A DNA stretch of 34,594 nt, from the NCBI GenBank assembly GCA_965195285.1, contig CBDAFS010000032.1, positions 1 to 34,594 of the forward strand, in the 5' to 3' direction. Below the pieces are notes generated by a model. It was not told the origin of the DNA, did no database searches, and saw only the letters and a program-made list of their open reading frames with translations. This document shows positions 1 to 34,594 of the stretch, piece by piece. This stretch comes from an uncultured Aminicenantes bacterium. GTDB lineage: Bacteria > Acidobacteriota > Aminicenantia > UBA2199. The first letter of the stretch is position 1. Every line of letters starts with the position of its first letter. The translations under genes and the position numbers were made by a program.

Positions 1-531
1 GTTGGTACTGGTGTAACCGGTACACCAACCAGCGGCACCCAATCTTACACCGAAGGCGCGACGGTAACCTATAGCTATTCGCTGGAGAGCGGGTATACCA
101 ACCTGGTGGTAACTCTTGACGGATCCCCGGTCTCTCCCAGCGGCACCATAACCGTTTCGGGCAACCGTAACTTAAGCGCAACCGCCGAGCCTGAGACCGG
201 CTTCGACATCCGCGGCAAGTGGACCGGGTACTTATACTGGGCGCAAGGTCATCCTCCTGTTGCGATAATTGATGTCTTTTTGACTGTTACCTTTGAGGGG
301 GGGCTGGAATCGGGCATTACCACAGCAAGAATGGATTATTCCTGGGGCTGGACTCACGGGACCTATTCCGTTGAGGGCAACCAGGTCAAATTTTACTTTG
401 GATTGTACCAGAGCTCTGTTCTTATACGATTCGGCGGTACTGTTGAAAATGACAACCTGATGCGCGGCTGGCATGAAACCAGTAATGACGTTGATTGGCG
501 CCGAGATGGCTGGATGCTGGAGAGGCAATAG
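1..531 (+). CDS. 5'-truncated (window edge) surface/lipoprotein, paralog of 24543..25169
   Basis: Frame 1 is open from base 1 (VGTGVTGTPTSGTQSYTEGATVTYSYSLESGYTNLVVTLD...) into the listed 106..531 ORF. It shares GTP..GT..VTY.YS..SGY.NL.VTLD..SGTIT.SGN, DIRG.WTG and a C-terminal W.LER with the 24543 protein. Confidence 0.85.
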   Translation, partial: VGTGVTGTPTSGTQSYTEGATVTYSYSLESGYTNLVVTLDGSPVSPSGTITVSGNRNLSATAEPETGFDIRGKWTGYLYWAQGHPPVAIIDVFLTVTFEGGLESGITTARMDYSWGWTHGTYSVEGNQVKFYFGLYQSSVLIRFGGTVENDNLMRGWHETSNDVDWRRDGWMLERQ

Positions 532-4804: not shown

Positions 4805-5900
4805 ATGGAACCGCTTGAACTCAAAAATCAGTTTGAGACCCTGAAAAAAAAGGCCATTGATTTACGGGGGTATCTTTGATCTTGAAGCCAAATCGAAGCG
4901 GTTGGAAGAGATTGAAACTCAATTGAGTGATGCGGAGATGTGGAACAATCCTCAAAAATCCACAGGTTTGTTAAAAGAGAAAAAGCGGCTGGAAAATAAG
5001 CTTGAGCTGGATAAGCGCTTTGATCGGGATATTCAGGAAATTGAAACTTATTTTTTATTGCTGGAGGAAGATCCCGGCCTGATTGATGAACTGCAGGATG
5101 AGCTCCAGAACTTTTCCCGGTTTATTGAGCAGCAGGAGATAAAAAATTACCTGAGTGGTGAATGTGATACGGATAACGCTTTCCTGAGTATTCATCCGGG
5201 AGCCGGAGGTACGGAAAGCCAGGACTGGGCCGAGATGCTGCTGCGGATGTATCTCCGGTTCGGGGAACGAATGGGATTTAGATGTCAGATCGTTGATGTC
5301 CTGGCCGGGGAAGAAGCGGGTATCAAAAGCGTTACGATTCGAATCGAAGGTGAATTTGCCTACGGATATATGAAACAGGAGATTGGGGTTCACCGGCTGG
5401 TCAGAATTTCACCCTTTGATGCCAACAAGCGACGCCATACATCGTTTGCTGCGGTATTTGTCTACCCGGAAGTAACGGACTCCATTGATATCCAGATTGA
5501 TACCAAGGATTTAAGAATCGATACCTATAAGGCCTCGGGCAAGGGAGGTCAACACGTCAATACCACTGATTCGGCTGTTCGCATTACCCATATTCCCACC
5601 AATATCGTGGCCCAGTGTCAGAGTGAGCGGTCGCAGCACCAGAATCGGGATAGGGCCATGAAAATATTGAAATCCAGGATGTACGATCTTGAACTGAGAA
5701 ACAAAATGAAAGAAAAGAATAAAATGGAAAACCAGAAGGGGGAGATTGCCTGGGGAAATCAGATAAGATCCTATGTGCTTCACCCCTATCAGAATATTAA
5801 GGACCACCGCAGCGGTTTGGAGCGGGGCAACAGCCAGAAGGTCCTGGATGGCGACATTTTTCAATTTATAAAAGCCACACTCAAGCAAAAAAAAAAATAA
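4805..5900 (+). CDS. prfB: peptide chain release factor 2, with programmed +1 frameshift
   Basis: ATG 4805 gives MEPLELKNQFETLKKKAIDLRGYL then TGA (4877-4879). The +1 frame continues DLEAKS... with the SPF (RISPFD) and GGQ motifs. Confidence 0.96.
4866..4880 (+). promoter_or_regulatory. prfB autoregulatory +1 frameshift cassette
   Basis: GGGGG-TAT-CTT-TGA-T: an internal SD-like run, then the slippery CTT-T and an in-frame UGA. Confidence 0.93.
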
Positions 5901-21732: not shown

Positions 21733-23286
21733 CTATTCCCATTCGATAGTGCCGGGCGGTTTTGAGGTCAGATCATAGGTAATTCGATTGATTCCCTTGA
21801 CCTCGTTAACGATCCGGTTTGATACTTTTTTCAAAAAATCATAGGGTGCCGGGTACCAATCGGCAGTCATCCCGTCCACACTATTGACCAGTCTGATGAC
21901 TGCCACATTCTCATAAGTACGGATATCTCCCATGACCCCCACGGTCCTGACCGGAAGCAAGACGATGAATGCCTGCCAGATAAAATCATAGATCTTAAAA
22001 TTCATAAGCTCTTCAATCAATATGGCATCAGCTTCCTGCAGTTTCTTGATCTTGTCCCGGGTGATCTTTCCGATGATTCGAACCGCCAATCCGGGTCCGG
22101 GGAAGGGATGGCGATTGACAAATTCCCTGTCCAGGCCTAATTCTGTCCCGACCTTCCGAACCTCATCTTTAAATAGTTCCTTGAGGGGCTCGATCAGTTT
22201 CCAGTTCATCTTGGCGGGCAGCCCTCCCACATTGTGGTGGCTCTTTATCGTCACCGACGGTCCGTTAACCGATACGGATTCGATGACATCCGGATACAGG
22301 GTTCCCTGGGCCAGGAACCGGACCTTCCCAATCTTTTTCTCGGCCTGTCTGAAAACATCAATGAAGGTTCTGCCGATTATTTTTCTTTTTTTTTCCGGTG
22401 AGCTGATATTGGTCAGATTTTTTAAAAAAATATTCGCAGCCCTGATTCCGGTTACCTTCAGGTTTAACTGATGCTTGAATTTAAACATCAAATCGTTGTA
22501 TTCGTTTTTTCTCAGCAAGCCGGTGTCGATAAAAACAGGTCGAAGTTGATCTCCGACCGCTTCTTTCATTAATAAGGTCAGTACGGTGGAATCAACACCT
22601 CCACTCAGGCCGAGAATCACCCTGTCCTCTCCGATTTCGTCCTTTATTTTGATCAGTGTGGATTTGATGAAATTTTCCATGCTCCAATCCGGTTTTAAAT
22701 CGGCAATACCAAATAAAAAATTGGACATTATTTTTTTGCCTTCGGTAGTATGAACCACTTCGGGATGAAACTGAACTCCGAAAATTTTTCGTTTTTTGGA
22801 TTCAATGACAGCCACTTCACTGTTTTTGGTCCTGCCCGTAACGATAAAATCCCGGGGATATTCGGAAATTTTGTCTCCATGACTCATCCATACTTTTGAA
22901 TGGTTTTTAATTGATTTTAACAGCAGGTCGGAAGGAGATGGTTTTTGATTTTTGTTTATTTCCAGATTGGCCAAACCGTACTCTCTGTTTTTGGCCGGTT
23001 CGATTACCATTCCGGACAGATAGGCGATCAGTTGCAGCCCGTAACATATTCCCAGAATGGGAATGCCGGCTTTTAGAATTTCAGGGGAAATTTTCGGGGC
23101 GTTTTTTTCATAAACGCTGGAAGGACCTCCGGAAAAAATCAGTGCCCCCGGATTCAGGGTCTGGATCTTTTTCAGGGAAATGTTGAAGGGGACTATTTCC
23201 GAATAAACATTCAAATCCCGGATTCTCCGGGCGATCAGTTTGGTATATTGGGAACCGAAATCCAAAATTAAAACACTATTTTTCAT
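21733..23286 (-). CDS. guaA: GMP synthase (glutamine-hydrolysing)
   Basis: LDFGSQY, LGICYG, QFHPE, LSGGVDS, IKSHHNVGGLP and KPPGTIEWE motifs. Confidence 0.97.
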   Translation of the reverse strand: MKNSVLILDFGSQYTKLIARRIRDLNVYSEIVPFNISLKKIQTLNPGALIFSGGPSSVYEKNAPKISPEILKAGIPILGICYGLQLIAYLSGMVIEPAKNREYGLANLEINKNQKPSPSDLLLKSIKNHSKVWMSHGDKISEYPRDFIVTGRTKNSEVAVIESKKRKIFGVQFHPEVVHTTEGKKIMSNFLFGIADLKPDWSMENFIKSTLIKIKDEIGEDRVILGLSGGVDSTVLTLLMKEAVGDQLRPVFIDTGLLRKNEYNDLMFKFKHQLNLKVTGIRAANIFLKNLTNISSPEKKRKIIGRTFIDVFRQAEKKIGKVRFLAQGTLYPDVIESVSVNGPSVTIKSHHNVGGLPAKMNWKLIEPLKELFKDEVRKVGTELGLDREFVNRHPFPGPGLAVRIIGKITRDKIKKLQEADAILIEELMNFKIYDFIWQAFIVLLPVRTVGVMGDIRTYENVAVIRLVNSVDGMTADWYPAPYDFLKKVSNRIVNEVKGINRITYDLTSKPPGTIEWE

Positions 23287-23291
23287 TCTTT

Positions 23292-23320
23292 ATTGTAACA
23301 TTCTGAATGGGATCAAACAA
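23292..23320 (-). promoter_or_regulatory. extended -10 promoter for (near-)leaderless guaA
   Basis: Minus strand TTGTTT-17-TACAAT with TGn immediately upstream of the -10, then 5 nt, then ATG 23286. Confidence 0.55.
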
Positions 23321-23337
23321 CAAATAAGACTAACTTC

Positions 23338-23880
23338 TTATGATTTCAGGGTTAAAAGGCTTGAGGCAATCATTCCAAAGATGATTCTCGATGTATCGTA
23401 AATATTGATGCCGGTTTCATTGGATATTTCAACAATACTCTTTATGCCATCGATTTTTGAAATGACCATCCATTCCAGGGTTGATAGTGATATTTTTCTC
23501 CGTTCGGCCCGGTCAATGTCATTGAAGGTCGGTATGGAATCGATTGAACCGATTTTTTTTCGCAACAGCTTCCATTCATCTATCCGACGGGCTGCTTCCA
23601 TCAGCAGCGATGTAACCGAGCGGGTAATGGTGGTGTTGACGTTGAATTCACCATCCTCGAAAACAAATTCCCCTTTCCCCCAGGAAATCAGAGTAAAAAC
23701 CGCATCCTCTCCGACAAAATTATCGATCTCGGAATGAACGATCTCACCATTATTTATATAAATATGTCCGGCTTCACCGGTCTCATTGGTGAGGACAAAC
23801 CGTCCGCTCTGCTTGGAGTTGGATACCAGCTGCATGATATCGGCAAGATTAATTGATTCTAAAGAGCCTTTTAAACTCAT
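23338..23880 (-). CDS. DUF4388 (PATAN-like) domain protein
   Basis: MSLKGSLESINLADIMQL...G.I.I.NGEIVHS...W..GEF.F...LLMEAARRIDEW signature. Confidence 0.88.
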   Translation of the reverse strand: MSLKGSLESINLADIMQLVSNSKQSGRFVLTNETGEAGHIYINNGEIVHSEIDNFVGEDAVFTLISWGKGEFVFEDGEFNVNTTITRSVTSLLMEAARRIDEWKLLRKKIGSIDSIPTFNDIDRAERRKISLSTLEWMVISKIDGIKSIVEISNETGINIYDTSRIIFGMIASSLLTLKS

Positions 23881-23914
23881 ATTATTAATTTCTCTCAGTT
23901 GATTTCAATAGGAT

Positions 23915-23942
23915 ATTATATAAGTTTCTTGGGTTTTGTCAA
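23915..23942 (-). promoter_or_regulatory. consensus sigma70 promoter for the DUF4388 gene
   Basis: Minus strand TTGACA-16-TATAAT. Confidence 0.65.
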
Positions 23943-24041
23943 GAATTTTACATTTTTTTCCTTAAAAAAATAGAGTTTTGAGATATATCCGATTATCAGA
24001 TCCGGAGGTGAACTTTTTTTGTTTTTGATAGTATATCTATT

Positions 24042-24365
24042 AGGAGGAATAATAATGAAGAAAATATCTTTCGGATTTATGATATATTCAAAAACCAGGT
24101 CAAATATCCCGGCCACTGGCCCAGTGCCATCGATCACATCGTGGCCGACAATAAGCTATATGTGCTGACCAACAAGAAGAATGGGGGCAAATCCGAATTT
24201 GTCATCTTTGATATGGAGGGGAAGCTGTTAAAAAAGGCCATGGTGCCGCTCAAATTTGCCAATCCACGTGAAACCTACCCCTTTACCATCAACTACGGAA
24301 AGCTGTTTCAATTGGCTGACAACGAAGACACCGAAGAATGGGAGCTCCATATTCATGTTATCTAA
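24042..24365 (+). pseudogene. internally deleted remnant of a secreted beta-propeller-like protein
   Basis: AGGAGG RBS + ATG 24055 (MKKISFG...) is out of frame with a protein-like C-terminal frame (YDIFKNQVKYPGHWP...VADNKLYVLT...DNEDTEEWELHIHVI) that has no RBS of its own. Confidence 0.6.
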
Positions 24366-24489
24366 ATTTATCCGGACACTGTTTTGATATTCATGCCTGG
24401 TTAACTAGTTGTCTTGTTAGTTGAAACCAGTCAACGCTTTTACATTGACTTCTGTTTCTTATATATCTTTAAGTTATCAAATCGAAATA

Positions 24490-24518
24490 TTGACTTTTGA
24501 CCTTTATATGGATACTAT
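24490..24518 (+). promoter_or_regulatory. sigma70-type promoter for the lipoprotein gene
   Basis: TTGACT-17-TACTAT, followed by a GAGGAGG RBS. Confidence 0.6.
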
Positions 24519-24542
24519 TTATTTAATTTGTGAGGAGGTAAA

Positions 24543-25169
24543 ATGAGAGCCAGGATATTGACTTTATTCATTTTTATTGGAATTTTTGTGGGATTATTAA
24601 TTTTTGCCGGGTGCAAAAGCACAGAGGATGCGGTTGAATATACCTTTACGGTTACCCTGGGTGAGGGAGTAAGCGGAACTCCGGCGGCCGGGACCTATAC
24701 CCATACTGCAAATGATGTGGTTACCTATAACTATTCAGCTCAATCCGGTTATGGGAACTTGACGGTTACACTTGATAATGCCAGTATCCCTGCCAGTGGT
24801 ACCATTACCATTTCCGGAAATCATACCCTGAATGTTACTTCTGATATTGATATCAGGGGATCCTGGACAGGCCATTTTTATCACAGTGTTTATGATAATT
24901 ATTTTGAAGTCACCTTCAGTGGAGATATATTTTCAGGAACAGCTCAAGGGAAAATAGATGTATATGGAATTGGAAATGGAGGCTATACCATTACCGATGG
25001 TCAGATTGAGTTTACATTACAACTCTCACAATTTGACTTAAATTTTAATGGTACCATCAATGATGTTAATCATATGAGTGGGTCCTGGCAGATCCCTGCA
25101 ACAAGCGGATCATCAGCTTCATTACCCAAAAAACTCCCGTCAAACGGAAACTGGGAGTTGGAAAGATAA
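24543..25169 (+). CDS. lipoprotein, paralog of 1..531
   Basis: Signal peptide II with FAGC lipobox, Thr/Gly-rich beta domains and a strong RBS. Confidence 0.85.
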   Translation: MRARILTLFIFIGIFVGLLIFAGCKSTEDAVEYTFTVTLGEGVSGTPAAGTYTHTANDVVTYNYSAQSGYGNLTVTLDNASIPASGTITISGNHTLNVTSDIDIRGSWTGHFYHSVYDNYFEVTFSGDIFSGTAQGKIDVYGIGNGGYTITDGQIEFTLQLSQFDLNFNGTINDVNHMSGSWQIPATSGSSASLPKKLPSNGNWELER

Positions 25170-25255
25170 ATTCACCACAAATGTTGTTGCCTTTTCCTTT
25201 AATGGGGATTTATTGGTTATTATATAATGAGTCTGTTTAAGGAAGGTGAAATAGG

Positions 25256-25672
25256 ATGAAGGCTATAAAAACATTTCCCCGGATTATTGGTAGTTTGTAT
25301 GCAGGCTTGCTGATTTTGGTTTTATTAATGGTCTGCTCATCAGCCGCTTTTTCTGCTACATACAGAGGTAAAAACATTGATCATAACCACTTTTCCGCCA
25401 CCCTTCAGATGAAGGGAACCACCACCACGTACAGGGTTAATGTGGTGTTTATCGAAAAGAAAGCCAACCTGGTGTTTAGTCATGACCAGACATTGCTCCC
25501 CGCCCAGCAGATAAACCAGTACCTGACCCTTTATTTGCAGGAAGAGGAGATAAAAGATCCAAAGGCGGTGGTGTTGCTGGAATTGATAGTGCCCACTGAA
25601 GAAACGGCGAGAAACAAGGATCCCAAAAACTGGAAGGTGAGTAAAGTCTGGGTCATGGAATTAAATCTGTAA
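25256..25672 (+). CDS. hypothetical secreted protein
   Basis: AAGGAAGG RBS-like sequence. Signal peptide ending AFSA. Confidence 0.7.
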   Translation: MKAIKTFPRIIGSLYAGLLILVLLMVCSSAAFSATYRGKNIDHNHFSATLQMKGTTTTYRVNVVFIEKKANLVFSHDQTLLPAQQINQYLTLYLQEEEIKDPKAVVLLELIVPTEETARNKDPKNWKVSKVWVMELNL

Positions 25673-25762
25673 AAATGAAAAAGAAAGAAAAAGGGGACAT
25701 CTCCCATTTCTTTTATATCTATAAATGTAAATCAAATCTAGATAATATGTGTTTTTGCTTTG

Positions 25763-26030
25763 GGCTGGGTGCTGGTTGCCGGAGGCTGAAAATACGCCCG
25801 GAGGGAGTCGAACCCCCAACGCGCAGATTTACTCGCTCGTTCATCACTCGCTCACCTTCGGTTCCTTCCCTTCGGTCAGTCATGCTGATTCACGTTGAGG
25901 TGAATCATGGGAAGTCTAAATTACACTTCTCCCAAAACCCTTATGGAGTCAGGTATAATCAGGTTTAAGGGACAATCAAATTGAAAATTAATTAAAATTT
26001 AACCAAAATAATTGGCACAAAGCTGGCACA
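25763..26030 (-). repeat. att-like direct repeat, copy 1
   Basis: 25792-25918 matches 29165-29291 at 126/127. 25919-26030 matches 29292-29403 at 84/112 with no gaps. 25763-25791 matches 29135-29163 at 21/29 (hand counts). Confidence 0.95.
25793..25914 (-). pseudogene. interrupted 3' half of tRNA-Arg(UCG), positions 32-73 (att core), copy 1
   Basis: Removing 25821-25855 and 25866-25910 leaves CT-TCG-GA ACCGA AGGTT GGGGG TTCGACT CCCTC CGGGCGT A, which has exact canonical tRNA numbering. No D arm, 5' acceptor strand or CCA. Confidence 0.8.
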
Positions 26031-26031
26031 A
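26012..26031. promoter_or_regulatory. putative tyrosine-integrase arm-type site pair, copy 1
   Basis: TGGCACA at 26013 and 26024 (11-bp period), about 100 bp from the tRNA anticodon loop. Confidence 0.6.
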
Positions 26032-26033
26032 AA

Positions 26034-28988
26034 CTATTCCTTCCCTTCCAGTTCCTTCACTCTTTTTCTGGCATCCTCCACTAGGTGCTGAAACTGAGGA
26101 TCGCAGTCCTGCCACAAGTTAATGAATTTGTTGTAGTTTTTTATGGCTTTATCTTTTTGACTTTGTTGCTGGTAGATTTTTCCCAAAATATAGAATGCTT
26201 TAGCATAGATGTCAGCATAGAAGCGCCTTCCCATAGGCAACTGTGTGACCCTCTTATACTGGGTGAGGGCATTCTGAAAGTCTTTTTTTTCAAAAAAAGT
26301 TGATCCCATGGCATTTGAAAAGACAAACTGCATGTTCGAGGTGGCTAGTGTAAGAGATAATCCCCGTTTGTAATACTCAAGGGCTTGGGAATATTCTTTT
26401 TTTTCATGCGAGATCAATCCAAGAAGATGGAAATAGGTGAACATAATCCTCTTATTCATCTGCTGTTCGATCATCCCTTTGAGAGCATCAGCCGTTTCTT
26501 GGGCCTTATCAAGAGATCCAAGGGCGATGTAAACCTGGGCTTTTGTATGTAGATTTTGTCTTTGATGCGCATAGGCCTCATTTTCTGTGGCGCTCTGCCA
26601 ATGTTCCTCTAGTTTGTCTAAGGCTCTTTCTGGATTCACTGTTCTCAGTTCTATTTGTACTAATGCATTTTGATAATCCCTTGCCCACCTCTTTTGACCG
26701 AGTTTTTCTGAATACTCCAGACCTTGATGTAAGGTTTGTTTTGCCTGAGTGAACTTTCCTTGATGGAGAGCCAATGCTGTCTTAAAATAGAAGCCCCGAA
26801 GGTTAGCGGCCGCTTCTTTTTCTTCAAGAAGTCTTCTGGATTCCTCCTTTGCTTTTGACAGCTTTCCTGTATAAAAATAGATTGACCACCTTCGCAGATG
26901 ATTGTTCCAAGCAGTTGGATCAAGAGAAATGGCTTTGTTATCCTCCTCAAAAGCCAAGTCGTATGCTCCTTGACATTGATATGTAAAAGCAAGGCTCCTG
27001 CGAATAAAAGCGCTGTCCGAGATGTTTTTGATGTAAGATCTGAGGACCTCCTCAGCTTTGTCGAAGCGGCCCATCCGTCTGTATGAGCGGGCCTGATTGG
27101 TGTAAATGACCACGTCTTCGCTTCCGCCCCTCTTGCAGACTTCGTAGTATTCAATGGCCCTGGCATTTTCTCCAATTCGGCCGTACAGATTACCCAGCAT
27201 GTTGTTCCCGCTGACATCCTCCGGGTAGAGCCTCAATAAGGATTCCAGCGCCTCTTTTCCTTTGTCATAGGTCTTCTCGGTTTGAATATAAAAGTCAGCC
27301 TGGATATTGAATTTCTCTCTGTCAGAGAGCCTAGAGCTCAATTCCAGAGCTTTTTTGATGTATTTCTCTTCTTCGGCATAATAACGAAGGTTCCCGTAGG
27401 CCCAGGACATGGCCCGGTAGGCTGAGGCGAATTCCGGATCTACGGCCACGGCCTTTTCCATGTACTCAATGACCTTCCGGTAATTTCCTTTAAGATCGTA
27501 TCTGATCCCTTCCAGATAGTATTCGTAGGCTTCAGGGGATGAGGTGGTGATTTGGCCAATGTCTTTATCTATATCACCGGAAATTTGCTTTTTTGATAGA
27601 TTCAATTTTGATTTGATCTCACGAGTGATGCCATCTATATTGGAAAAAATTTCTCCCCTTTTTGTTCTTACTGATAATGAACTGATGGTTTCGCCGGTGT
27701 CGGCTTTTAATAGAACGGTGGTTATGACAAAGTTATCTTTATCTTTTATATAACTTCCCCTTAAAATATGATTGACTCGGCCCTTTTTGGCAATTTCTAT
27801 TAGATCTTGTGTTGAGTACCTTTTAGCCTCCAGAAGGTTTAACTTTTTAAAAATACCATAAATTTCATCCGATCTTAAGACCCTAATGTATTTAGACTGA
27901 GAAAGGTCTATGGTCAAAAGCTCAGAAAACGCATCTCTCCAGTTATCCAGTTTTTCATCCCCGGATTTGTTTTCAAAATATACAATAGCAAGTGATGGTT
28001 TACTACCTGGCTCAACCGGAGGTAATTCCAGTTCAACTTTTCCTTTAAAGATAAAATATCCAGCAATGATGATAGCAGCAAGAAATGGAATAGCAAGAGA
28101 CAGGATTTTGGGTGAGAATGTTACTCCAGGTTTCGCTTTGGGTTTTACCTTTATTGATTTAATTTCAGGTTCAGATTCTCTTTTTATTTTTCTAAGATCT
28201 ACCAGTAGATCTGGTGTTCCCTGATATCTCTCGTTTGGATCTTTATTGAGTATCTTTTTGATTATACGTTCTAGCTCCATAGGAATACCGGTTCTTAATC
28301 CTGTAACCGGCTCCGGCTCCTCATTCATGATCGCATACATGATAGCCTGTTCGTATTCGCCTTTGAATGGCAATTGCCCGGTGATCATTTCATAGAGGAG
28401 CACACCCAGAGACCAAATATCAGAGCGGTGATCCATTTTGTCACCTGAAGCCTGTTCAGGGGACATATAATCCACAGTTCCCAGAGTGGTTCCCTCTTTG
28501 GTGAGTTTGGTAACTCCCTTTAACTTGGCCAGACCAAAATCCAGGATTTTTACCTCATTTCTTTTGGTAACAATAATATTTGCTGATTTAATATCCCGGT
28601 GAATAATATTTGATTCATGGGCTCTCTGTAATCCCTGGGCTGCCTGAATGGACATATTAATAGCTTCGGCTATGGGCAAGGGGCCAGAGGCAATTTTATC
28701 TTTTAAGGTTTTCCCCTCATAGTTAGCCATAGCAATGAACATCTGGCCGTCATCGGTTTCATCGATCTCGTAAACCGAACAAATATTGGGATGATCAAGC
28801 GCTGCGGCTGCTTTAGCCTCATGGATGAACCGTTTTTTCTCTTCTTCATTAATGCTGAATTGTTTGGGTAGAAACTTAAGAGCTACCAGCCGGTCGAGTT
28901 TGGTATCCTGAGCTTTGTATACAACACCCATTCCTCCCTCACCCAGTTTTTCCTGGATCTTGTAGTGAGAAATGGTTTTTCCAATCAT
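26034..28988 (-). CDS. Hanks-type Ser/Thr protein kinase with TM, TolB-N-like and TPR domains
   Basis: LGEGGMGVVY, VALK, HRDIKSAN, DFG, GTVDYMSPEQ and DIWSLG kinase motifs. A TM helix near residue 300, then FENKSGD...LSQ and many TPR-like repeats. Confidence 0.95.
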   Translation of the reverse strand: MIGKTISHYKIQEKLGEGGMGVVYKAQDTKLDRLVALKFLPKQFSINEEEKKRFIHEAKAAAALDHPNICSVYEIDETDDGQMFIAMANYEGKTLKDKIASGPLPIAEAINMSIQAAQGLQRAHESNIIHRDIKSANIIVTKRNEVKILDFGLAKLKGVTKLTKEGTTLGTVDYMSPEQASGDKMDHRSDIWSLGVLLYEMITGQLPFKGEYEQAIMYAIMNEEPEPVTGLRTGIPMELERIIKKILNKDPNERYQGTPDLLVDLRKIKRESEPEIKSIKVKPKAKPGVTFSPKILSLAIPFLAAIIIAGYFIFKGKVELELPPVEPGSKPSLAIVYFENKSGDEKLDNWRDAFSELLTIDLSQSKYIRVLRSDEIYGIFKKLNLLEAKRYSTQDLIEIAKKGRVNHILRGSYIKDKDNFVITTVLLKADTGETISSLSVRTKRGEIFSNIDGITREIKSKLNLSKKQISGDIDKDIGQITTSSPEAYEYYLEGIRYDLKGNYRKVIEYMEKAVAVDPEFASAYRAMSWAYGNLRYYAEEEKYIKKALELSSRLSDREKFNIQADFYIQTEKTYDKGKEALESLLRLYPEDVSGNNMLGNLYGRIGENARAIEYYEVCKRGGSEDVVIYTNQARSYRRMGRFDKAEEVLRSYIKNISDSAFIRRSLAFTYQCQGAYDLAFEEDNKAISLDPTAWNNHLRRWSIYFYTGKLSKAKEESRRLLEEKEAAANLRGFYFKTALALHQGKFTQAKQTLHQGLEYSEKLGQKRWARDYQNALVQIELRTVNPERALDKLEEHWQSATENEAYAHQRQNLHTKAQVYIALGSLDKAQETADALKGMIEQQMNKRIMFTYFHLLGLISHEKKEYSQALEYYKRGLSLTLATSNMQFVFSNAMGSTFFEKKDFQNALTQYKRVTQLPMGRRFYADIYAKAFYILGKIYQQQSQKDKAIKNYNKFINLWQDCDPQFQHLVEDARKRVKELEGKE

Positions 28989-29007
28989 GAGTTATCTATC
29001 CATGGAT

Positions 29008-29036
29008 TTTATAGCATATAGATATTTTATTTTCAA
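29008..29036 (-). promoter_or_regulatory. possible promoter of the kinase gene
   Basis: Minus strand TTGAAA-17-TATAAA with TGn before the -10. Confidence 0.4.
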
Positions 29037-29165
29037 TAAATGTGTTTTAATTTTAAAAAAGTAATTATTATGTCCCCATATTTAATGCATGCAGGCAAGC
29101 AGAGGATATCAACTTAGAATGTTGAACTTAGTTTGGCTGGGAGCTAGCGACAGGATGTTGAAACA

Positions 29166-29287
29166 TACGCCCGGAGGGAGTCGAACCCCCAACGCGCAGA
29201 TTTACTCGCTCGTTCATCACTCGCTCACCTTCGGTTCCTTCCCTTCGGTCAGTCATGCTGATTCACTTTGAGGTGAATCATGGGAAG
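29166..29287 (-). pseudogene. interrupted 3' half of tRNA-Arg(UCG) (att core), copy 2
   Basis: Identical to copy 1 except G25894/T29267. Inserts at 29194-29228 and 29239-29283. Confidence 0.8.
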
Positions 29288-29384
29288 TCTATATTGCATA
29301 TTCCCCAAAACGCCCTTATAGTCAGCTATAATAAGGTTTTCGGAGCAATAATTTTGAAAATAAATTAAAAATTAACCAAAATAT

Positions 29385-29403
29385 TTGACACAAATTTGAC
29401 ACA
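29385..29403. promoter_or_regulatory. putative integrase arm-type site pair, copy 2
   Basis: TGACACA at 29386 and 29397 (11-bp period), positionally equivalent to the TGGCACA pair of copy 1. Confidence 0.6.
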
Positions 29404-29824
29404 GTTGGTATATTGTTGACATTTATTGTTTCTGATTTTAAAATACGTGCATCGGGACTTTGACTTCCATTTTCATTTAATTTGGAGTCAGTATTACAAA
29501 ACCGGAGGCATGGGTGATGGAGAATGATGAATTGATCAACAAAGATGATCTGAAAAGAGCAGCAGTGAACCTGGCATGGGGTTGGTAAAACCACCAGACT
29601 TGATTGGAAACCTGCTGCTTGGCAAATAAATGATTTATGAACGATTTCGCACATGTCATGAGCCAATACGGGATTGGACGAAGAACCATGAGATCTGAAA
29701 AATATCTCTTATGGACCTGGCATGGTACTGATCGTTTTCTGGGATGCATAAAATGCATCAAGGGCTGCTGGATTTAAATCCGGAACTTGCCTTAAACCTG
29801 ATGGGTGACCCTTGTTTTTAAAAC

Positions 29825-31306
29825 TTATTTCCGACGAGTCATTCTCTGCTTAGTATCAGCAATGCTCAGAAAATCAAAATCTTCATCAATAAAATATTTA
29901 AGATCAAAATCTTCATGGGTGACCACAAGAACAACGACCTGATTCTTTGCAAGGTATTCTGATATGGTCTGCATGACAAGTGTGCGGGTTTCAAAGTCGA
30001 TATGCGCGAAGGGTTCATCCAGCAAAAGGACTTTTGGTTTTGAGATAAGAGAGCGAAGAATATCCATTCGCTTCATTTCACCTGAGCTTAAATTTCTTGG
30101 CAATTTTTCCAATAGTTCAATAGGAAGAAGAAGCTTATCCATGTAAGTTTTAAGTAAATAATTATCGTCTTCTGCCCCAAAGTTTTGTTGGGGATAGATC
30201 TGAGTGAATGAATCCCTGATTGAAAGATCCGGGAAAAAAGCAAAACGGGAATCCTGCTGTACAACGCTCATCTTTTTTCGAAAAGGTTTAAATGCAACAG
30301 GGTCATTTCCGTTTTCCTTTTTTTTCAGTTCCACAAGATTCTGTTCGTCCAGAACTATATTTCCGGTGGTCCCGTCAATAAGACGAAGAATAGATCGGAT
30401 CATGCTTGTTTTGCCACATCCACTTGGGCCTGAGATTCCATATATTATTGACTCAGAAAATTTCATACTCAGGTTTCTAAATGCATAAAAGTCATGTTCA
30501 CCAAATAACCCCCTGATCTTGTAATGTTGTGATACTTTTTGAAGCTCCAGTCCCGGGCCGGTGATTTCTTTCGGCTTTGGTTTTTCATACCCGGAGCTTT
30601 CGGGAAGGGCATCTAGGTATTTAAATTGACCATCTTCAAGTGCTATGATTGTATCCATGGAAAGCGCTCTGACAAAGTCAATATCATGGCTTGCCATCAG
30701 AATGGTTTTGTCTTTTTGGGTGAGTACCTCTTTGTTGAGAAATTGGATAAACCGTTTGCGAAGGTTGCGATCCAGATTAACAGTTGGTTCGTCTAAATAA
30801 AGCAGACCTCCCTTTCTTGAGAGGAGAATCATCAGTGTTATTCGCTGGAGTTCGCCTCCGCTAACTTCGTCAGGATAGTACTTGGTAAATTTTTTAAAGT
30901 CTATTCCAAAGTACTCATTGAGTCTTTGTTCAATGAGATCACGGGAATCCGGTGCAAGAAGCTTCAGGTTCTGTTCAAGGGAAAGGGATGGGTTCATGGC
31001 CTGGGCACTTTCTGCAGGAACAAACACAATTCCTTTTTGCCTGATTTGGTTCCAGGTTTTATAGTTGGTTTTGACACCATCTTGGTAGGCATAAAATCCA
31101 TTCAGTTTCATTGAACCAGTCAGTTTAAACGGATAAGCAGGCAGCAATCCTGCCAATGCACTGAGAAGAACTGACTTGCCAGTACCGGTCATGCCTGTTA
31201 TCGCGGTTGACGTTCCAGGCTCAGGTATAAAGGAGTCGATATTGAAAAGCGTTCTGTCAAAAAGGGTTACAGAAAAGTAATCGAGTATCAGCGGATATGA
31301 TTTCAT
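29825..31306 (-). CDS. ABC transporter ATP-binding protein, two fused NBDs (OppD/F, NikD/E-like)
   Basis: First NBD: GMTGTGKS, SGGELQR, YLDEP. Second NBD: GPSGCGKT, LSSGEMKR, LLDEP. H-loops SHD and THE. Confidence 0.9.
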   Translation of the reverse strand: MKSYPLILDYFSVTLFDRTLFNIDSFIPEPGTSTAITGMTGTGKSVLLSALAGLLPAYPFKLTGSMKLNGFYAYQDGVKTNYKTWNQIRQKGIVFVPAESAQAMNPSLSLEQNLKLLAPDSRDLIEQRLNEYFGIDFKKFTKYYPDEVSGGELQRITLMILLSRKGGLLYLDEPTVNLDRNLRKRFIQFLNKEVLTQKDKTILMASHDIDFVRALSMDTIIALEDGQFKYLDALPESSGYEKPKPKEITGPGLELQKVSQHYKIRGLFGEHDFYAFRNLSMKFSESIIYGISGPSGCGKTSMIRSILRLIDGTTGNIVLDEQNLVELKKKENGNDPVAFKPFRKKMSVVQQDSRFAFFPDLSIRDSFTQIYPQQNFGAEDDNYLLKTYMDKLLLPIELLEKLPRNLSSGEMKRMDILRSLISKPKVLLLDEPFAHIDFETRTLVMQTISEYLAKNQVVVLVVTHEDFDLKYFIDEDFDFLSIADTKQRMTRRK

Positions 31307-32100
31307 ATTTCATTCTCCTTATTCTTTGTAAGGACAAGAAGAAATGCAATGCTTATCATGACAAGAGGCAGAACCGGAAGCCAAAAAAGAAGAGGAGATC
31401 CTCCTTGGAAAAGGGCATCACGGTTTGCAGCAATTAAGGCGCCTGGACTTGCATGTGCCGGTGTCCCATAACTGCCGAAACCCAGCTGGATGATAAAACC
31501 GAATGAACAATCCAAAACAAGTACTTTCAGGAGAGTCCCTGCAGCTATCCGTTTAAAAGCATGGCGCATGACATTTGTTCCCATGAGTATGGCAAGTATT
31601 TTTCTTCGTCTGAATCCATATGACCGGAAAGAAAGGCTGTATTTCTGGTAATATAATTCACCCAGCGGAAGGGTGATTCCCCGTATTGATTCCGGCAGGA
31701 TTGTCAGAGTTGCAGCAAAAACGAAGATCATGAGAGAAACAACAGAAGAAGAAGCCTCAGAGTGACTGGCAAGATAACCTGATACCGGTGCATAACAAAA
31801 AAGGACGATCAATATGGCCGGAACTGATTCTATTGCCTCAAGAACCGCTGCTATAATTTTACCGATAATCGACCACAATATGCTGATATATCCAAGGGTT
31901 AGCGTAATTAATGCCGCAAACAATAGTGTAGCTAAAAGGGTAATGGAAAGCTGTTGGAATGATAGAACCAAGGATGAACGATAGGCAGGCGTAAGATCTT
32001 TGAGAAAACCATCTAAGATTGAAGGCACCCAGGCAGCAAGAAATGGTGATACCAAGAGAAATATCCAGAAATTCTTCAGATAATTAAATAGCTTTTTCAT
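31303..32100 (-). CDS. divergent ABC permease (OppC/DppC-like)
   Basis: Multi-TM. ESVPAILIVL, a degenerate EAA loop (FRSYGFRRRKIL) and GALIA...W..P. GAGG RBS before ATG 32100. Confidence 0.75.
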   Translation of the reverse strand: MKKLFNYLKNFWIFLLVSPFLAAWVPSILDGFLKDLTPAYRSSLVLSFQQLSITLLATLLFAALITLTLGYISILWSIIGKIIAAVLEAIESVPAILIVLFCYAPVSGYLASHSEASSSVVSLMIFVFAATLTILPESIRGITLPLGELYYQKYSLSFRSYGFRRRKILAILMGTNVMRHAFKRIAAGTLLKVLVLDCSFGFIIQLGFGSYGTPAHASPGALIAANRDALFQGGSPLLFWLPVLPLVMISIAFLLVLTKNKENEI

Positions 32101-32968
32101 ACAACCTCGGATACAAAAAGAATAAGACCGTCTTGACTGCAAACGTGACAATCGCGTTTACGCAGAGCAGTATAAACACACTGGCAATGAGAAGATCCGT
32201 GTTTCGGGTAAGAAGAGCATCCAATAGGGTACTTCCAAGGCCCGGGAAAGAAAAAATGATTTCAGCAATAGTGACCCCTCCGATAATCGCGGGAACCTTT
32301 CCGGCAAGATAAGGTATAAATCTGGGAAAACTTGACGAGAGCAGATATCCTGAGAATGTGCCCGGAAGGGGAAACAGCCTGCCCAAGGGAAGTCCTAATG
32401 TGCTGAATACCATGGTGTGGGTGGTACCCATCTGGCGCTGCATATCTGTCAATAAAAATCTGGAAGCGTCCCACCCAAGTCCTCCAAGGGTGATGGTAAT
32501 GAAGGCAATCAGCAAAAACGGGGCATTATTCCCATAACTTTCTCCAAATACCCAGAAACCGACAAATAAGGGAATAGCTGCCAGCAAAATTGCAATAGAT
32601 TTCCCGAATGTTAGAAATTTTGGTATGATTTTGTTCCCGTGTTTTTTCTCAAGATACTCAGTTGTTGTTGAGATCGCAGCACATGACAAGGCGATAAGTA
32701 CAAGAATAACCAGTGATATAATGGCAAGGGGCAGTGTAATTCCTGCTCCAGACATGATTATGGCAGATGCACTGTATCCGGGATGTGCCATTGAAAAATC
32801 AGTAGAACCGGTTAAAAGCTGAAAAAATGAATAACACGCTTCTGCATATTTTTCAATGGGTACACCAATGGCGAGAAAATACAAGGATACAAGCCCCATT
32901 GTTCCTATAATGGCGAACAAAATGCCTCGCAAGAGGAATTCATAGACAAAAAATCGAAAAAATCTCAA
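32084..32968 (-). CDS. divergent ABC permease (OppB/DppB-like)
   Basis: C-terminal GGVTIAEIIFSFPGLGSTLLDALLTRNTDL...LYPR OppB signature. Probable TTG start at 32968, just after the SBP stop. Confidence 0.82.
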   Translation of the reverse strand: MRFFRFFVYEFLLRGILFAIIGTMGLVSLYFLAIGVPIEKYAEACYSFFQLLTGSTDFSMAHPGYSASAIIMSGAGITLPLAIISLVILVLIALSCAAISTTTEYLEKKHGNKIIPKFLTFGKSIAILLAAIPLFVGFWVFGESYGNNAPFLLIAFITITLGGLGWDASRFLLTDMQRQMGTTHTMVFSTLGLPLGRLFPLPGTFSGYLLSSSFPRFIPYLAGKVPAIIGGVTIAEIIFSFPGLGSTLLDALLTRNTDLLIASVFILLCVNAIVTFAVKTVLFFLYPRLYEKAI

Positions 32969-32969
32969 G

Positions 32970-34574
32970 TCATAAACCTGCCAATGACCAGTTTTCAGCT
33001 GAAAGAAATGGATTATCTGAAGCAATGACAATGTTTTTTATATTGCGGGAATATACATCCTTTTCAAGAGTAAACAGATATACTACAGGAGCATCAGATA
33101 AAATCCGATCATGAATTTGCCGGGTTACTCGTGTCCAGTCATGCATGATAACGGTTTTGTCCCAAGTATCAAACAACTTGTCCAGTTCATGGTCCCGTAT
33201 ACCGGAAATGTTATACATGCCATCTGAGCGATACCATTTGTCTAAATCTGAATACAGATTATCAAAACCGTCACAATAAAGAAGCGCAAGCTCATAGTTT
33301 TTCTCGACAAAGACAAGGCGGTTGAACACTTGGTCTCCTGTTCTTTTGGCTGTAACTGTTAAACCAATTTTAGCAAATTGTCTTACCAAGCCCTCAGATA
33401 TCTGTTTGCCGAATTCACCCAATGAATCGGGATATAAAAGGATAGCAGTCTTTTCATTTATCCCTCCGGATACAGCCAGTTTTTGTGCCTTGGTAATATC
33501 ATAGGACATTGTATCTTCCAGAGGCTTAACATTGTATTCCTTCATATTCAGAGAAAACAGATTACTGGGGAAAGGACCGTAATTGAGAACAGCATTTTTT
33601 CTGTCTGTTACATTGGGAACAAGGATAGACCTGTCCAGAGAAGTGGAAAGTGCTTTGCGAGCATAAACATTGTTGAATAACGGAGCGTTTGAATTAATGG
33701 CCACTTTATATAATGAATAGGGAATATACCAATTGATATCAACACCTGATATGCCTTCGATCTTTGGGCGGTCCAGTGGTGATGTTTCAAGAATCAGGTT
33801 TATGCGTCCTTTTCTGAACTCATTGAGTCGTATAACAGGATCAATGGATTTTCTGATGATAAGGGTACCAGCAGCAGGAACCCGCTTAAAATAACCCCGA
33901 TTTGCGCTAAAGGTCAGCCATTTCCCAATCTCCCAGGAGGCCAGCTTAAAGGGGCCTGTGCCAATTGGTTGGACAGCAAATAATCGTTCATTCTCTCCGG
34001 AGCGAAGATTAAAGGCAAGTTTTTTCCCATTATAGGTCTCAGGTATAATTTTAAAGGTTAATACAGGATATGCACGAAAAGGGGGAATTGGATTTCGAAA
34101 TGTAATTTGAACTGTTTTATCGTCAATCGCCTTTACATCCTCGATAAAAGATAGAAGATATTCCCGTTTAGGGGATTTGTTGGCGGGTTCGACATAGGCT
34201 TTGTAAGAAAAAACCACATCCTTTGCTGTTAACTCAGTTCCATCATGCCAATTCATTTGGCGCAGGATTACTGTGTATATTTTCTTGGTCACGGGGTCCT
34301 GTGTAATGCTTTCAGCGATGGCAAACTCAGAGCCTATTGTTCCGCTGGCTGCATCAACTTCAAAATTGACAAGACCATCAAAGACAAGTTCATTAGCATT
34401 GATTGCCTGAGTATTTTGTTCAAGAATTGGATTAAGTGAGTCAGGAAGATTTGACGCCCCGATAACAATTCCCTCTGGTGCTTTTTCCCAGGGAAAAAAG
34501 AGTAGAATTACAATCCCAATAATTACTATACTGACGATAGCTATTATAATAGCCTTTTTCTTTTTATTTATCAT
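32970..34574 (-). CDS. ABC substrate-binding protein, family 5 (peptide/nickel)
   Basis: SLNP, VFDGLV, WHDGTELTAKDVVFS and PIGTGPFKL motifs. N-terminal TM anchor with no lipobox Cys. Confidence 0.92.
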   Translation of the reverse strand: MINKKKKAIIIAIVSIVIIGIVILLFFPWEKAPEGIVIGASNLPDSLNPILEQNTQAINANELVFDGLVNFEVDAASGTIGSEFAIAESITQDPVTKKIYTVILRQMNWHDGTELTAKDVVFSYKAYVEPANKSPKREYLLSFIEDVKAIDDKTVQITFRNPIPPFRAYPVLTFKIIPETYNGKKLAFNLRSGENERLFAVQPIGTGPFKLASWEIGKWLTFSANRGYFKRVPAAGTLIIRKSIDPVIRLNEFRKGRINLILETSPLDRPKIEGISGVDINWYIPYSLYKVAINSNAPLFNNVYARKALSTSLDRSILVPNVTDRKNAVLNYGPFPSNLFSLNMKEYNVKPLEDTMSYDITKAQKLAVSGGINEKTAILLYPDSLGEFGKQISEGLVRQFAKIGLTVTAKRTGDQVFNRLVFVEKNYELALLYCDGFDNLYSDLDKWYRSDGMYNISGIRDHELDKLFDTWDKTVIMHDWTRVTRQIHDRILSDAPVVYLFTLEKDVYSRNIKNIVIASDNPFLSAENWSLAGL

Positions 34575-34594
34575 TAGCGTATCCTCGTTATAAA

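What the first reader, a model, noticed from the sequence alone, without database searches (positions are those of the whole stretch)
25763..29403. Integrase-free single-gene cassette between two tRNA-derived att junctions (possible tRNA-anchored cassette array)
Seen: two same-orientation copies of a ~270-bp unit lie 3373 bp apart and enclose only a kinase-TPR gene with its upstream region. On the minus strand each unit reads [arm-like pair]-~95 bp AT-rich-[tRNA-Arg positions 32-73]. Identity drops sharply from 126/127 to about 75% four bases outside the anticodon loop. The kinase stop lies only a few bases from the arm pair. Known: many tyrosine integrases cross over in the 7-nt anticodon loop and carry a replacement tRNA 3' end, and repeated integration builds tandem arrays separated by such junctions. 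Inference: this is a stack of sequentially acquired units (ABC operon unit, kinase unit, perhaps more) at a tRNA-Arg(UCG) lying right of the window. Individual units have no integrase, so they are either integron-like cassettes mobilised in trans or islands reduced to cargo.
Basis: partly seen in the sequence, partly recalled or inferred. Interest (0 to 1): 0.8.

Follow-up and report, generated by a model that had tools for sequence, protein, structure and literature searches.

The report
Island junction repeats at a tRNA-Arg site
Two copies of a ~280-bp repeat that ends in the 3' part of a tRNA-Arg gene bracket a protein-kinase gene at the spot where related bacteria have the intact tRNA, which is what repeated insertion of mobile DNA into a tRNA gene leaves behind; this process is well known, though this example has some odd details.

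Summary
The repeat is real. Two same-orientation units 3373 bp apart (about 25753-26033 and 29130-29404) enclose only the kinase-TPR gene. Their core is 125 of 126 identical. The flanks are 76% identical upstream and about 65% for ~36 nt downstream.

The last 37 nt of the core match positions 37-73 of tRNA-Arg(UCG) from six Candidatus Aminicenantes-type genomes exactly. In two relatives with shared gene order (GuaA, DUF4388), the intact tRNA sits exactly where unit A's fragment lies. Nothing to the right of unit A (kinase, ABC operon) occurs at that site in them.

So unit A is a displaced tRNA fragment at an island boundary, and unit B is an internal junction. The best reading is accretion of integrative elements, with the kinase segment a decayed, integrase-less (CIME-like) element.

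One correction: the tRNA-derived part is not contiguous. An 8-mer (positions 28-35) is separated from positions 37-73 by an 81-nt non-tRNA insert. About 66 nt of that region is strongly conserved in further unit copies found in other contigs.

No integrase, intact tRNA or excision evidence is in the window. Mobility and "integron-like" behaviour remain untested. The case is ordinary in kind and moderately interesting in detail.

The parts
25753..26033 (-). Unit A, whole repeat (about 280 nt): distal junction at the native tRNA-Arg(UCG) locus
   Evidence: repeat and its limits; orthologous to the position of the intact tRNA in L005 and L003; P0362 aligns to 25753-25992
26012..26033 (-). Arm pair A: two tandem 11-nt repeats (TTTTGTGCCAG / CTTTGTGCCAA on the minus strand), directly after the kinase stop
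   Evidence: D3: 26013-26023 and 26024-26034, 91%
25919..26011 (-). AT-rich spacer of unit A (93 nt); about 76% identical to unit B over the 115 nt upstream of the core
25911..25918 (-). TAGACTTC, identical to tRNA-Arg(UCG) positions 28-35; marks the start of the near-identical core
25830..25910 (-). 81-nt non-tRNA insert, with an 8-bp hairpin and short direct repeats; one difference between A and B, in the hairpin loop. Its 5' two-thirds plus the 8-mer form the module conserved in other contigs
   Evidence: fold, z-scores -0.85 to -2.24, not significant; conserved in P0362 and P0366-P0369; absent from L001-L006
25793..25829 (-). Displaced tRNA-Arg(UCG) 3' fragment, positions 37-73, 37 of 37 identical to relatives' tRNA
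25753..25792 (-). Trailer of unit A (about 36-40 nt), similar to the trailers of unit B and of P0362 but not to the tRNA trailers of relatives
   Evidence: (0 of 3000 shuffles), (relatives' trailers printed)
26034..28988 (-). Ser/Thr protein kinase with TPR repeats (984 aa), the only gene between the units
   Evidence: orthologues at 93, 81, 78 and 73% identity in Aminicenantes-type contigs
29130..29404 (-). Unit B, whole repeat: internal junction between the ABC-operon segment and the kinase segment
29383..29404 (-). Arm pair B (CTGTGTCAAAT / TTGTGTCAAAT). Both halves carry T where both halves of A carry C
29284..29291 (-). TAGACTTC (tRNA 28-35) of unit B
29203..29283 (-). 81-nt insert of unit B
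29166..29202 (-). tRNA-Arg(UCG) 3' fragment (positions 37-73) of unit B
29405..29824 (.). 420-nt gap between the ABC ATPase stop and unit B; only short broken ORFs, no family match
29825..34574 (-). ABC transporter operon (family-5 solute-binding protein, two permease-like ORFs, fused double ATPase); lies on the island side of unit B, cargo status not shown
21733..25672 (.). Chromosomal flank: GuaA (21733-23286, -), DUF4388 (23338-23880, -), ORF208 (24543-25169, +), ORF138 (25256-25672, +). The first three are syntenic with L005. ORF138 is extra in the window

Best explanation
The window comes from a Candidatus Aminicenantes-type bacterium. Integrative DNA has inserted into its tRNA-Arg(UCG) gene at least twice.

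Each ~280-bp unit is an element-end junction. It has an element-derived arm (a tandem 11-nt pair, an AT-rich spacer and a strongly conserved module of about 66 nt with a hairpin). This is followed by a displaced 3' part of the tRNA (positions 37-73) and a short trailer. Unit A is the outermost junction, at the original tRNA position. Unit B is an internal, attP-like chimeric junction between two accreted elements.

The 3.4-kb kinase segment carries no recombinase. It is best read as a decayed element that kept its flanking sites (a CIME-like remnant). If it can move at all, it would need an integrase encoded elsewhere.

Shown: the repeat, its tRNA origin, its position at the tRNA locus, the insertion relative to relatives, the lack of an integrase in the window, and further unit copies elsewhere.

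Inferred: that a tyrosine integrase made the junctions, that an intact tRNA and an integrase lie beyond 34594, and that the conserved module is a recombination or accessory-protein binding region.
For: - Repeat and its limits.
- tRNA origin: the 33-mer from the unit hit 6 genome stretches, all 6 intact tRNA-Arg(TCG). Positions 37-73 are identical in all 6.
- Empty-site comparison: 2 of the 6 loci (L005, L003) share flanking genes with the window (GuaA 72% and DUF4388 90% amino-acid identity). They carry the intact tRNA on the same strand where unit A's fragment lies. L005 beyond the tRNA has no match in the window.
- 5 of 6 relatives have a homologous ~460-aa gene at the tRNA 5' side. The window has none.
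- The 3' neighbour of this tRNA differs among the relatives (DUF4388, lipoprotein-like ORFs, an SSF symporter, an AlwI/D12 restriction-modification pair). This fits an insertion hot spot.
- No integrase among 29 main ORFs, nor among 90 further stop-to-stop ORFs of at least 45 aa in 23881-34594 (96 listed, and the 6 left out were large genes already scanned).
- Tetranucleotide distance of the kinase tile (0.298) and the ABC tile (0.293) exceeds all 8 tiles left of unit A (mean 0.211, sd 0.025, max 0.263).
- More unit copies: P0362 (534-nt contig; 43 of 43 core residues identical in the plus-strand reading; a different outer flank). Also a cluster of 4 ORFs on 4 contigs that keep the module but lack 7 residues (21 nt, about tRNA 37-56).
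- Principle: integration splits a tRNA gene, the island restores it, and a displaced fragment marks the island end (Islander paper PMC4383910, abstract and passages).
- CIME and accretion are defined in PMC5704250 (passages).
Against: - No intact tRNA-Arg, integrase, excisionase or transfer gene is in the window.
- The tRNA-derived block is interrupted by 81 nt and lacks G36. The units therefore have no intact anticodon-loop overlap and may not be functional sites.
- The 8+81 nt next to the fragment are 88 of 89 identical, while the rest of the arm is about 76% identical. This calls for strong constraint or gene conversion, which the model does not predict by itself.
- Unit A's trailer resembles the trailers of B and of P0362, not the tRNA trailers of relatives. 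So A may not be the last junction.
- The kinase, ABC ATPase and GuaA all have orthologue series of similar depth (93-73%, 92-83%, 96-77%). The cargo therefore looks native to the clade rather than foreign.
- The compositional signal rests on 2 tiles, and TPR repeats may bias it.
- Only 2 of 6 relatives are informative for synteny.
Confidence: 0.6

Rival explanations
1. Cassette platform. Each unit is a complete, self-contained recombination site, analogous to an integron attC. Single-gene cassettes (kinase plus its unit, a 3373-bp circle) are captured and excised by a dedicated recombinase encoded elsewhere, and the tRNA-Arg gene serves as the anchor site.
For: - The unit begins directly after the kinase stop codon.
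- Both units, and the copy in P0362, have arm, core and trailer. All three therefore look like complete attP-like sites rather than half-sites.
- A module of about 66 nt stays nearly invariant even in a diverged family of copies.
- There is no recombinase between the units.
Against: - Only one single-gene segment is seen. The other segment is a four-gene operon lying 420 nt from its unit.
- No recombinase is known for it.
- No evidence exists of circles or of cargo turnover.
- The folds of the unit are not better than shuffles by a convincing margin (z -0.85 to -2.24).
Confidence: 0.12
2. Dispersed short repeat. The ~280-bp unit is a non-autonomous mobile or recombinogenic repeat (MITE-like) that happens to carry a tRNA-derived piece. 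It inserts at many sites, and the kinase lies between two copies by chance or by rearrangement.
For: - Unit copies occur next to unrelated sequence: a truncated glycosyltransferase-like reading frame in P0362 and an AT-rich flank in P0366-P0369.
- The tRNA piece is internal to the conserved unit.
- Unit A has a 9-nt, 89% inverted repeat near its two ends (I2).
Against: - Unit A sits exactly at the orthologous tRNA-Arg position and on the same strand.
- There is no third copy in 34.6 kb.
- The 33-mer found no unit copy in one genome for each of 185,579 species, only 6 true tRNAs.
- The inverted repeat was not found in unit B.
- No target-site duplication is seen.
Confidence: 0.1
3. Functional RNA gene. 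The 126-nt core is transcribed as a small RNA ending in a tRNA-like T arm and acceptor strand, or as part of an interrupted or split tRNA-Arg. The two copies are paralogous genes kept identical by selection.
For: - The near-perfect identity is confined to the core, with flanks at 65-76%.
- The module is conserved in other contigs.
- The T arm followed by a T-run is listed as terminator-like.
Against: - No sigma-70-like promoter is found on the minus strand upstream of either core.
- No Rfam match appears even at E up to 10, apart from a 17-nt T-arm match.
- Fold z-scores are unremarkable.
- No tRNA 5' half is in the window.
- G36 is missing, so joining the two tRNA pieces would not give an Arg(UCG) anticodon loop.
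- With two copies and one substitution there is no covariation to test.
Confidence: 0.08
4. Assembly artefact. The contig was threaded twice through a 126-nt exact repeat. The real configuration may be an empty junction plus a separate molecule or another locus carrying the kinase.
For: - A 126-nt near-exact repeat is about as long as or longer than typical assembly k-mers (established knowledge).
- Related unit-bearing contigs are very short (534 and 932 nt), as expected where repeats break assemblies.
Against: - The two copies have distinct flanks on both sides and differ at one core position. They are therefore two real loci.
- The path through them is the only one that uses each flank once.
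Confidence: 0.05

Closest known systems
Genomic islands integrated in tRNA genes, including tandem arrays (Islander definition; PMC4383910, abstract and passages read)
   Same: - A displaced 3' tRNA fragment marks the island end, in the same orientation as the tRNA of relatives.
- The fragment starts in the anticodon region, the commoner of the two site classes listed there (2083 anticodon-centred against 1836 T-stem/junction).
- Relatives have an empty site.
- Two fragments in tandem.
   Different: - Islander accepts a tandem only if each member has its own integrase. Here neither segment in the window has one.
- The tRNA-derived block is split by an 81-nt insert.
- The intact tRNA was not seen.
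CIMEs (cis-mobilizable elements) and site-specific accretion, as described for streptococcal ICE/IME tandems (review PMC5704250, passages read; the primary papers by Pavlovic 2004 and Bellanger 2011 appear only in its reference list and were not read)
   Same: [quoted passage not shown]
- It sits in tandem with another element at the 3' end of a tRNA gene.
- The internal junction is chimeric.
   Different: - No ICE or IME partner, integrase, relaxase or oriT has been identified.
- The host is an uncultured phylum.
- The cargo is a single kinase gene.
- Cis-mobilisation is untested.
Integron gene cassettes (attC-bounded, integrase in trans); recalled from general knowledge, no paper read here
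   Same: A single promoter-proximal gene followed immediately by a recombination-site-like repeat, with no recombinase inside the cassette.
   Different: - No IntI, attI or Pc is seen.
- The unit is about 280 bp and carries a tRNA fragment.
- There is no evidence of the folded single-strand attC structure.
Tandem islands at the tmRNA gene ssrA of Dehalococcoides (PMC3146451; only the search listing and the start of the abstract were seen)
   Same: Site-specific integration of cargo islands at a single small-RNA gene in an uncultured-type lineage.
   Different: Details were not read, so no feature-level comparison was made.

Membership tests
tRNA-integrated genomic island (Islander criteria) | A fragment of a tRNA gene lies in the same replicon and orientation as the intact, regenerated tRNA gene | tested here: inconclusive
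   Two fragments (positions 37-73) are present. No intact tRNA is in the window. The orientation matches the tRNA of syntenic relatives. The region beyond 34594 is not available.
tRNA-integrated genomic island (Islander criteria) | An integrase gene lies inside the island | tested here: not met
   No Phage_integrase or other recombinase family among 29 ORFs and 90 further ORFs of the window. The island may extend beyond the window.
tRNA-integrated genomic island (Islander criteria) | Relatives have the uninterrupted site (empty attB) | tested here: met
   L005 and L003 (2 of 6 loci with shared flanks) carry the intact tRNA-Arg(TCG) at the orthologous place without kinase or ABC genes.
tRNA-integrated genomic island (Islander criteria) | The fragment starts at a known crossover sublocation (anticodon loop, T loop or T/acceptor junction) | tested here: inconclusive
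   The fragment starts at position 37, inside the anticodon loop. The 8-mer for positions 28-35 lies 81 nt upstream and G36 is missing.
CIME (cis-mobilizable element) | Flanked by attL- and attR-type sites | tested here: met
   The kinase segment is bounded by two same-orientation units with a 125 of 126 identical core. That they function as att sites is inferred.
CIME (cis-mobilizable element) | No integration or transfer genes of its own | tested here: met
   The only gene is the kinase-TPR. No other family hit in 26034-29161.
CIME (cis-mobilizable element) | Derived from, and mobilised in cis by, an ICE or IME with a cognate integrase | not testable with these tools
   No ICE or IME is in the window.
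Integron cassette array | IntI integrase with adjacent attI and Pc | tested here: not met
   No integrase in the window.
Integron cassette array | attC sites with conserved folded structure | tested here: inconclusive
   Folds of the core and module are not clearly better than shuffles (z -0.85 to -2.24). No attC model was run.
tRNA gene (intact, intron-bearing or split) | Cloverleaf with both halves and a complete anticodon loop | tested here: not met
   ARAGORN found 0 genes. No 5' half in the window. G36 is absent. No Rfam tRNA or intron hit.
MITE-like dispersed repeat | Terminal inverted repeats, target-site duplication and many scattered copies | tested here: inconclusive
   A 9-nt 89% inverted repeat in unit A only. 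No duplication seen. 2 copies in the window. At least 2 other contexts exist in other contigs, but their genomic positions are unknown.

The most novel reading that the evidence does not exclude
The units are the recombination sites of a previously undescribed cassette system anchored at tRNA-Arg(UCG) in Aminicenantes. Single genes such as the kinase would travel as small circles, each with one complete ~280-bp site whose invariant module of about 66 nt (a hairpin plus a copy of anticodon-stem positions 28-35) is recognised by a recombinase encoded elsewhere. This would be an integron-like gene-capture platform built on a tRNA-derived site.
Probability: 0.12. Interest if true: 0.75.

Novelty: new member of a known kind. 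Interest (0 to 1): 0.4.

Why it matters
It gives a concrete, mapped example of site-specific island accretion at a tRNA gene in Candidatus Aminicenantes. This phylum is known only from metagenomes, and I searched for no literature on its mobile elements. The example includes an integrase-less single-gene element.

If the conserved ~66-nt module proves to be a recombination site, it would be a handle for finding the cognate integrase and other cargo across these genomes. It would also flag a repeat likely to break assemblies at this locus.

The 81-nt interruption of the tRNA-derived identity block has no explanation yet. It could mark an inactivated site or an unusual site architecture.

Tried and rejected
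- Rfam, at gathering thresholds on the whole window and at E up to 10 on 25500-29900: no family for the unit, only a 17-nt tmRNA T-arm match.
- RNA folds of the core, the module and the insert on both strands: z-scores -0.85 to -2.24, so no support for a structured RNA.
- Sigma-70 scan: no minus-strand promoter upstream of either core. The strong promoter-like sites are on the plus strand in unit B's arms.
- Search for a third copy, or for the tRNA 5' half, in the window: none.
- Search for the 81-nt insert in the six relatives' loci: none.
- Phage and plasmid collections with unit A: only generic tRNA T-arm matches in 18 phage records and no plasmid match.
- Pfam on the ORF fragments of the 29405-29824 gap, ORF138, ORF208 and others at E up to 10: nothing usable.
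- Linking kinase, ABC ATPase and GuaA orthologues through shared contig lengths: none were shared among the top hits. This hints that the three are unlinked in relatives. It is indirect, because only the longest contig of each cluster is given.
- Hammerhead-like and archaeal bulge-helix-bulge readings of the insert, considered by eye: dropped for lack of the required motifs and of any Rfam hit.
- Williams 2002 (PMC100330) is not held in the library. Its classes are cited only through the Islander paper.
- Not checked: the metagenome and viral contig collections (closed), and a second genome scan (cap reached). The DNA context of the kinase orthologues and of P0362 and P0366-P0369 is therefore unknown.
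- No supplementary files were consulted.

Full report
**Observation**

The repeat finder reports one direct-repeat family in the window: 25789-26030 and 29162-29403, spacing 3373. Alignment of the minus strands and a segment-by-segment comparison give the following:
- The core is 125 of 126 identical.
- The 115 nt upstream are 90 of 118 identical (0 of 3000 shuffles score as well).
- There is no similarity beyond about 120 nt upstream (2882 of 3000 shuffles score as well).
- Significant similarity runs for about 36 nt downstream of the core (0 of 3000), but not further (835 of 3000).

The only substantial ORF between the copies is a 984-aa Ser/Thr kinase with TPR repeats (26034-28988, minus). 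Its stop codon directly abuts an 11-nt tandem pair at the start of unit A.

**Anatomy, on the minus strand**

The parts of the unit, in order:
- Arm pair: A 26033-26012, B 29404-29383.
- 93-nt AT-rich spacer.
- TAGACTTC: A 25918-25911, B 29291-29284.
- 81-nt segment: A 25910-25830, B 29283-29203.
- 37 nt: A 25829-25793, B 29202-29166.
- Trailer of about 36 nt.

The single core difference lies in the loop of an 8-bp hairpin inside the 81-nt segment.

**tRNA origin**

ARAGORN finds no tRNA in the window. Rfam finds nothing at gathering thresholds, and nothing relevant at E up to 10.

A 33-mer from the 3' part of the core was scanned against one genome for each of 185,579 species. It hit 6 stretches. 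Five are labelled Candidatus Aminicenantes MAGs and one an uncultured Clostridia MAG. All 6 hits lie in intact tRNA-Arg(TCG) genes.

The alignment and blastn show that the 37 nt equal positions 37-73 of that tRNA. TAGACTTC equals positions 28-35. G36 is absent, and the 81 nt between the two pieces have no counterpart in the tRNA or in the six loci.

The 8-mer by itself is weak evidence: 1283 of 20000 shuffles contain some 8-mer of tRNA 1-36. What makes it notable is that it sits exactly at the identity boundary and ends just where the 3' fragment resumes.

**Genomic setting**

The left 25 kb of the window are housekeeping genes: ThiI, RF2, ComEC, SucCD, DnaE, GuaA. The best named hits of the kinase and of GuaA are Candidatus Aminicenantes.

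tblastx of the six loci against the window finds shared flanks in 2 of 6:
- L005 reads GuaA (72% identity), DUF4388 (90%), a lipoprotein-like ORF related to ORF208, then the intact tRNA-Arg on the minus strand.
- L003 reads DUF4388, then the tRNA.

In the window, the same gene order ends in unit A's tRNA fragment, on the same strand.

Beyond the tRNA, L005 continues with a 463-aa protein, a DAG-kinase-like gene and ExbD/ExbB/TonB. None of these match the window. A homologous ~460-aa gene sits at the tRNA 5' side in 5 of 6 relatives and has no homologue in the window.

So everything to the right of unit A (kinase, unit B, a 420-nt gap, the ABC operon; at least 8.8 kb) is inserted relative to these relatives. 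The tRNA 5' part has been moved away.

The 3' neighbour of this tRNA differs among the relatives: DUF4388, lipoprotein-like ORFs, an SSF symporter, and an AlwI/D12 restriction-modification pair. That fits a variable hot spot.

**No recombinase**

None of the 29 main ORFs matches an integrase, excisionase or transposase family. Neither do 90 further stop-to-stop ORFs of at least 45 aa in 23881-34594. One search listed 96 such ORFs; the 6 left out were large genes already scanned.

**Is the right part foreign?**

Tetranucleotide distance to the left part is 0.298 (kinase tile) and 0.293 (ABC tile). The 8 left tiles, each scored leave-one-out, give mean 0.211, sd 0.025 and maximum 0.263. This is suggestive only.

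The kinase (93, 81, 78, 73%), the ABC ATPase (92, 91, 90, 88, 83, 83%) and GuaA (96, 86, 77%...) all have orthologue series of similar depth. The cargo therefore looks native to the clade.

The contig lengths attached to those top hits do not coincide between the three proteins. This hints that the genes are not neighbours in relatives. It is indirect, because only the longest contig of each cluster is given.

**More copies elsewhere**

The plus-strand reading of the core (43 aa) was searched against 1.84 billion representative proteins. Five proteins scored at E up to 0.001. Three of them are long repetitive proteins and were set aside as unrelated.

P0362 (114 aa, from a 534-nt contig) is 43 of 43 identical over the core. 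It also aligns over the trailer and part of the arm of both units (74% and 71%). Its outer flank, however, reads like the N-terminus of a glycosyltransferase. That label is by eye and comes from no call.

P0366 represents a cluster of 4 ORFs on 4 contigs. These keep the stretch PSVPSLRSVMLIHFEVNHGKSKL almost unchanged, which corresponds to TAGACTTC plus about 58 nt of the insert. They lack 7 residues, which corresponds to about tRNA positions 37-56.

Three conclusions follow:
- The unit is a family.
- It occurs in at least two more contexts.
- A module of about 66 nt is more strongly conserved than the tRNA piece.

The DNA of those contigs could not be fetched.

**Interpretation**

The empty site in relatives, a displaced tRNA 3' fragment at the exact tRNA position, and a second identical fragment 3.4 kb further in are the signature of repeated site-specific integration into a tRNA gene. 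The principle is stated in the Islander paper.

An element that keeps its flanking sites but has lost its integrase, sitting in tandem with another, is what the streptococcal literature calls a CIME produced by accretion.

I therefore read unit A as the distal junction and unit B as an internal chimeric junction. The kinase segment is a decayed, integrase-less element. The arm and the conserved module are probably binding regions for an integrase and accessory proteins.

**Several points do not fit neatly**

- The 81-nt interruption removes an intact anticodon-loop overlap.
- The 8+81 nt are 88 of 89 identical while the rest of the arm is about 76% identical.
- Unit A's trailer resembles those of B and of P0362 rather than the tRNA trailers of relatives. 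The small extra ORF138 may therefore belong to yet another remnant.

These points keep three other readings open: a cassette-platform reading, a dispersed-repeat reading and, less likely, an RNA-gene reading. Support for the RNA-gene reading is lacking. There is no minus-strand promoter, no Rfam hit, and the folds are unremarkable. An assembly path error through the 126-nt repeat cannot be excluded without reads.

**Verdict**

The tRNA-anchored, integrase-free structure is supported. The mechanism is most likely ordinary integrase-mediated accretion followed by decay. Mobility in trans and integron-like behaviour are untested.

Noticed in passing
window 4805-5900 (+), frameshift site about 4873-4879: The release factor 2 gene seems to carry the classic programmed +1 frameshift. 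A short frame starts at ATG 4805 and runs into CTT TGA preceded by a GGGGG stretch. The long PCRF/RF-1 ORF listed from 4857 continues in the +1 frame. The motif is recalled from general knowledge.
   Followed up: partly
window 29405-29824: The gap between the ABC ATPase stop and unit B holds only short broken ORFs. One plus-strand fragment (29569-29640) contains a Walker-A-like GVGKTT. No Pfam match at E up to 10. It may be the remnant of a lost gene.
   Followed up: partly
window 29385-29444 (+): Two strong sigma-70-like sites (11 of 12 matches each) lie on the plus strand within and next to the arm pair of unit B. The reverse complement of each arm half contains TTGACA. They point away from the unit, towards the broken ORFs.
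   Followed up: no
window 26012-26033 and 29383-29404: The two halves of each arm pair co-vary. Both halves read TGTGCCA in unit A and TGTGTCA in unit B.
   Followed up: no
window 25256-25672 (+): ORF138 is a small protein with a hydrophobic N-terminus and no family match. It lies between ORF208 and unit A and has no counterpart in L005, where the tRNA follows the ORF208 homologue after 128 nt.
   Followed up: partly
window 1-531 (+) and 24543-25169 (+); L005 2871-3509: The partial ORF at the window's left end is a paralogue of ORF208 and of the L005 lipoprotein-like ORF (tblastx).
   Followed up: no
L002 2847-6302: In this Aminicenantes MAG, an AlwI-type restriction endonuclease and a D12 adenine methyltransferase lie just 3' of tRNA-Arg(TCG). 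No second tRNA fragment occurs within the 8 kb held.
   Followed up: no
window 24012-24365 (+): A short ORF in the DUF4388-ORF208 spacer looked by eye like the tail of a beta-propeller protein. It has no Pfam match.
   Followed up: partly
one search hit table: Kinase-TPR proteins form a multigene family in these genomes. Several contigs carry two or three paralogues at 39-53% identity to the query, for example contigs of 114881, 57208 and 26755 nt.
   Followed up: no
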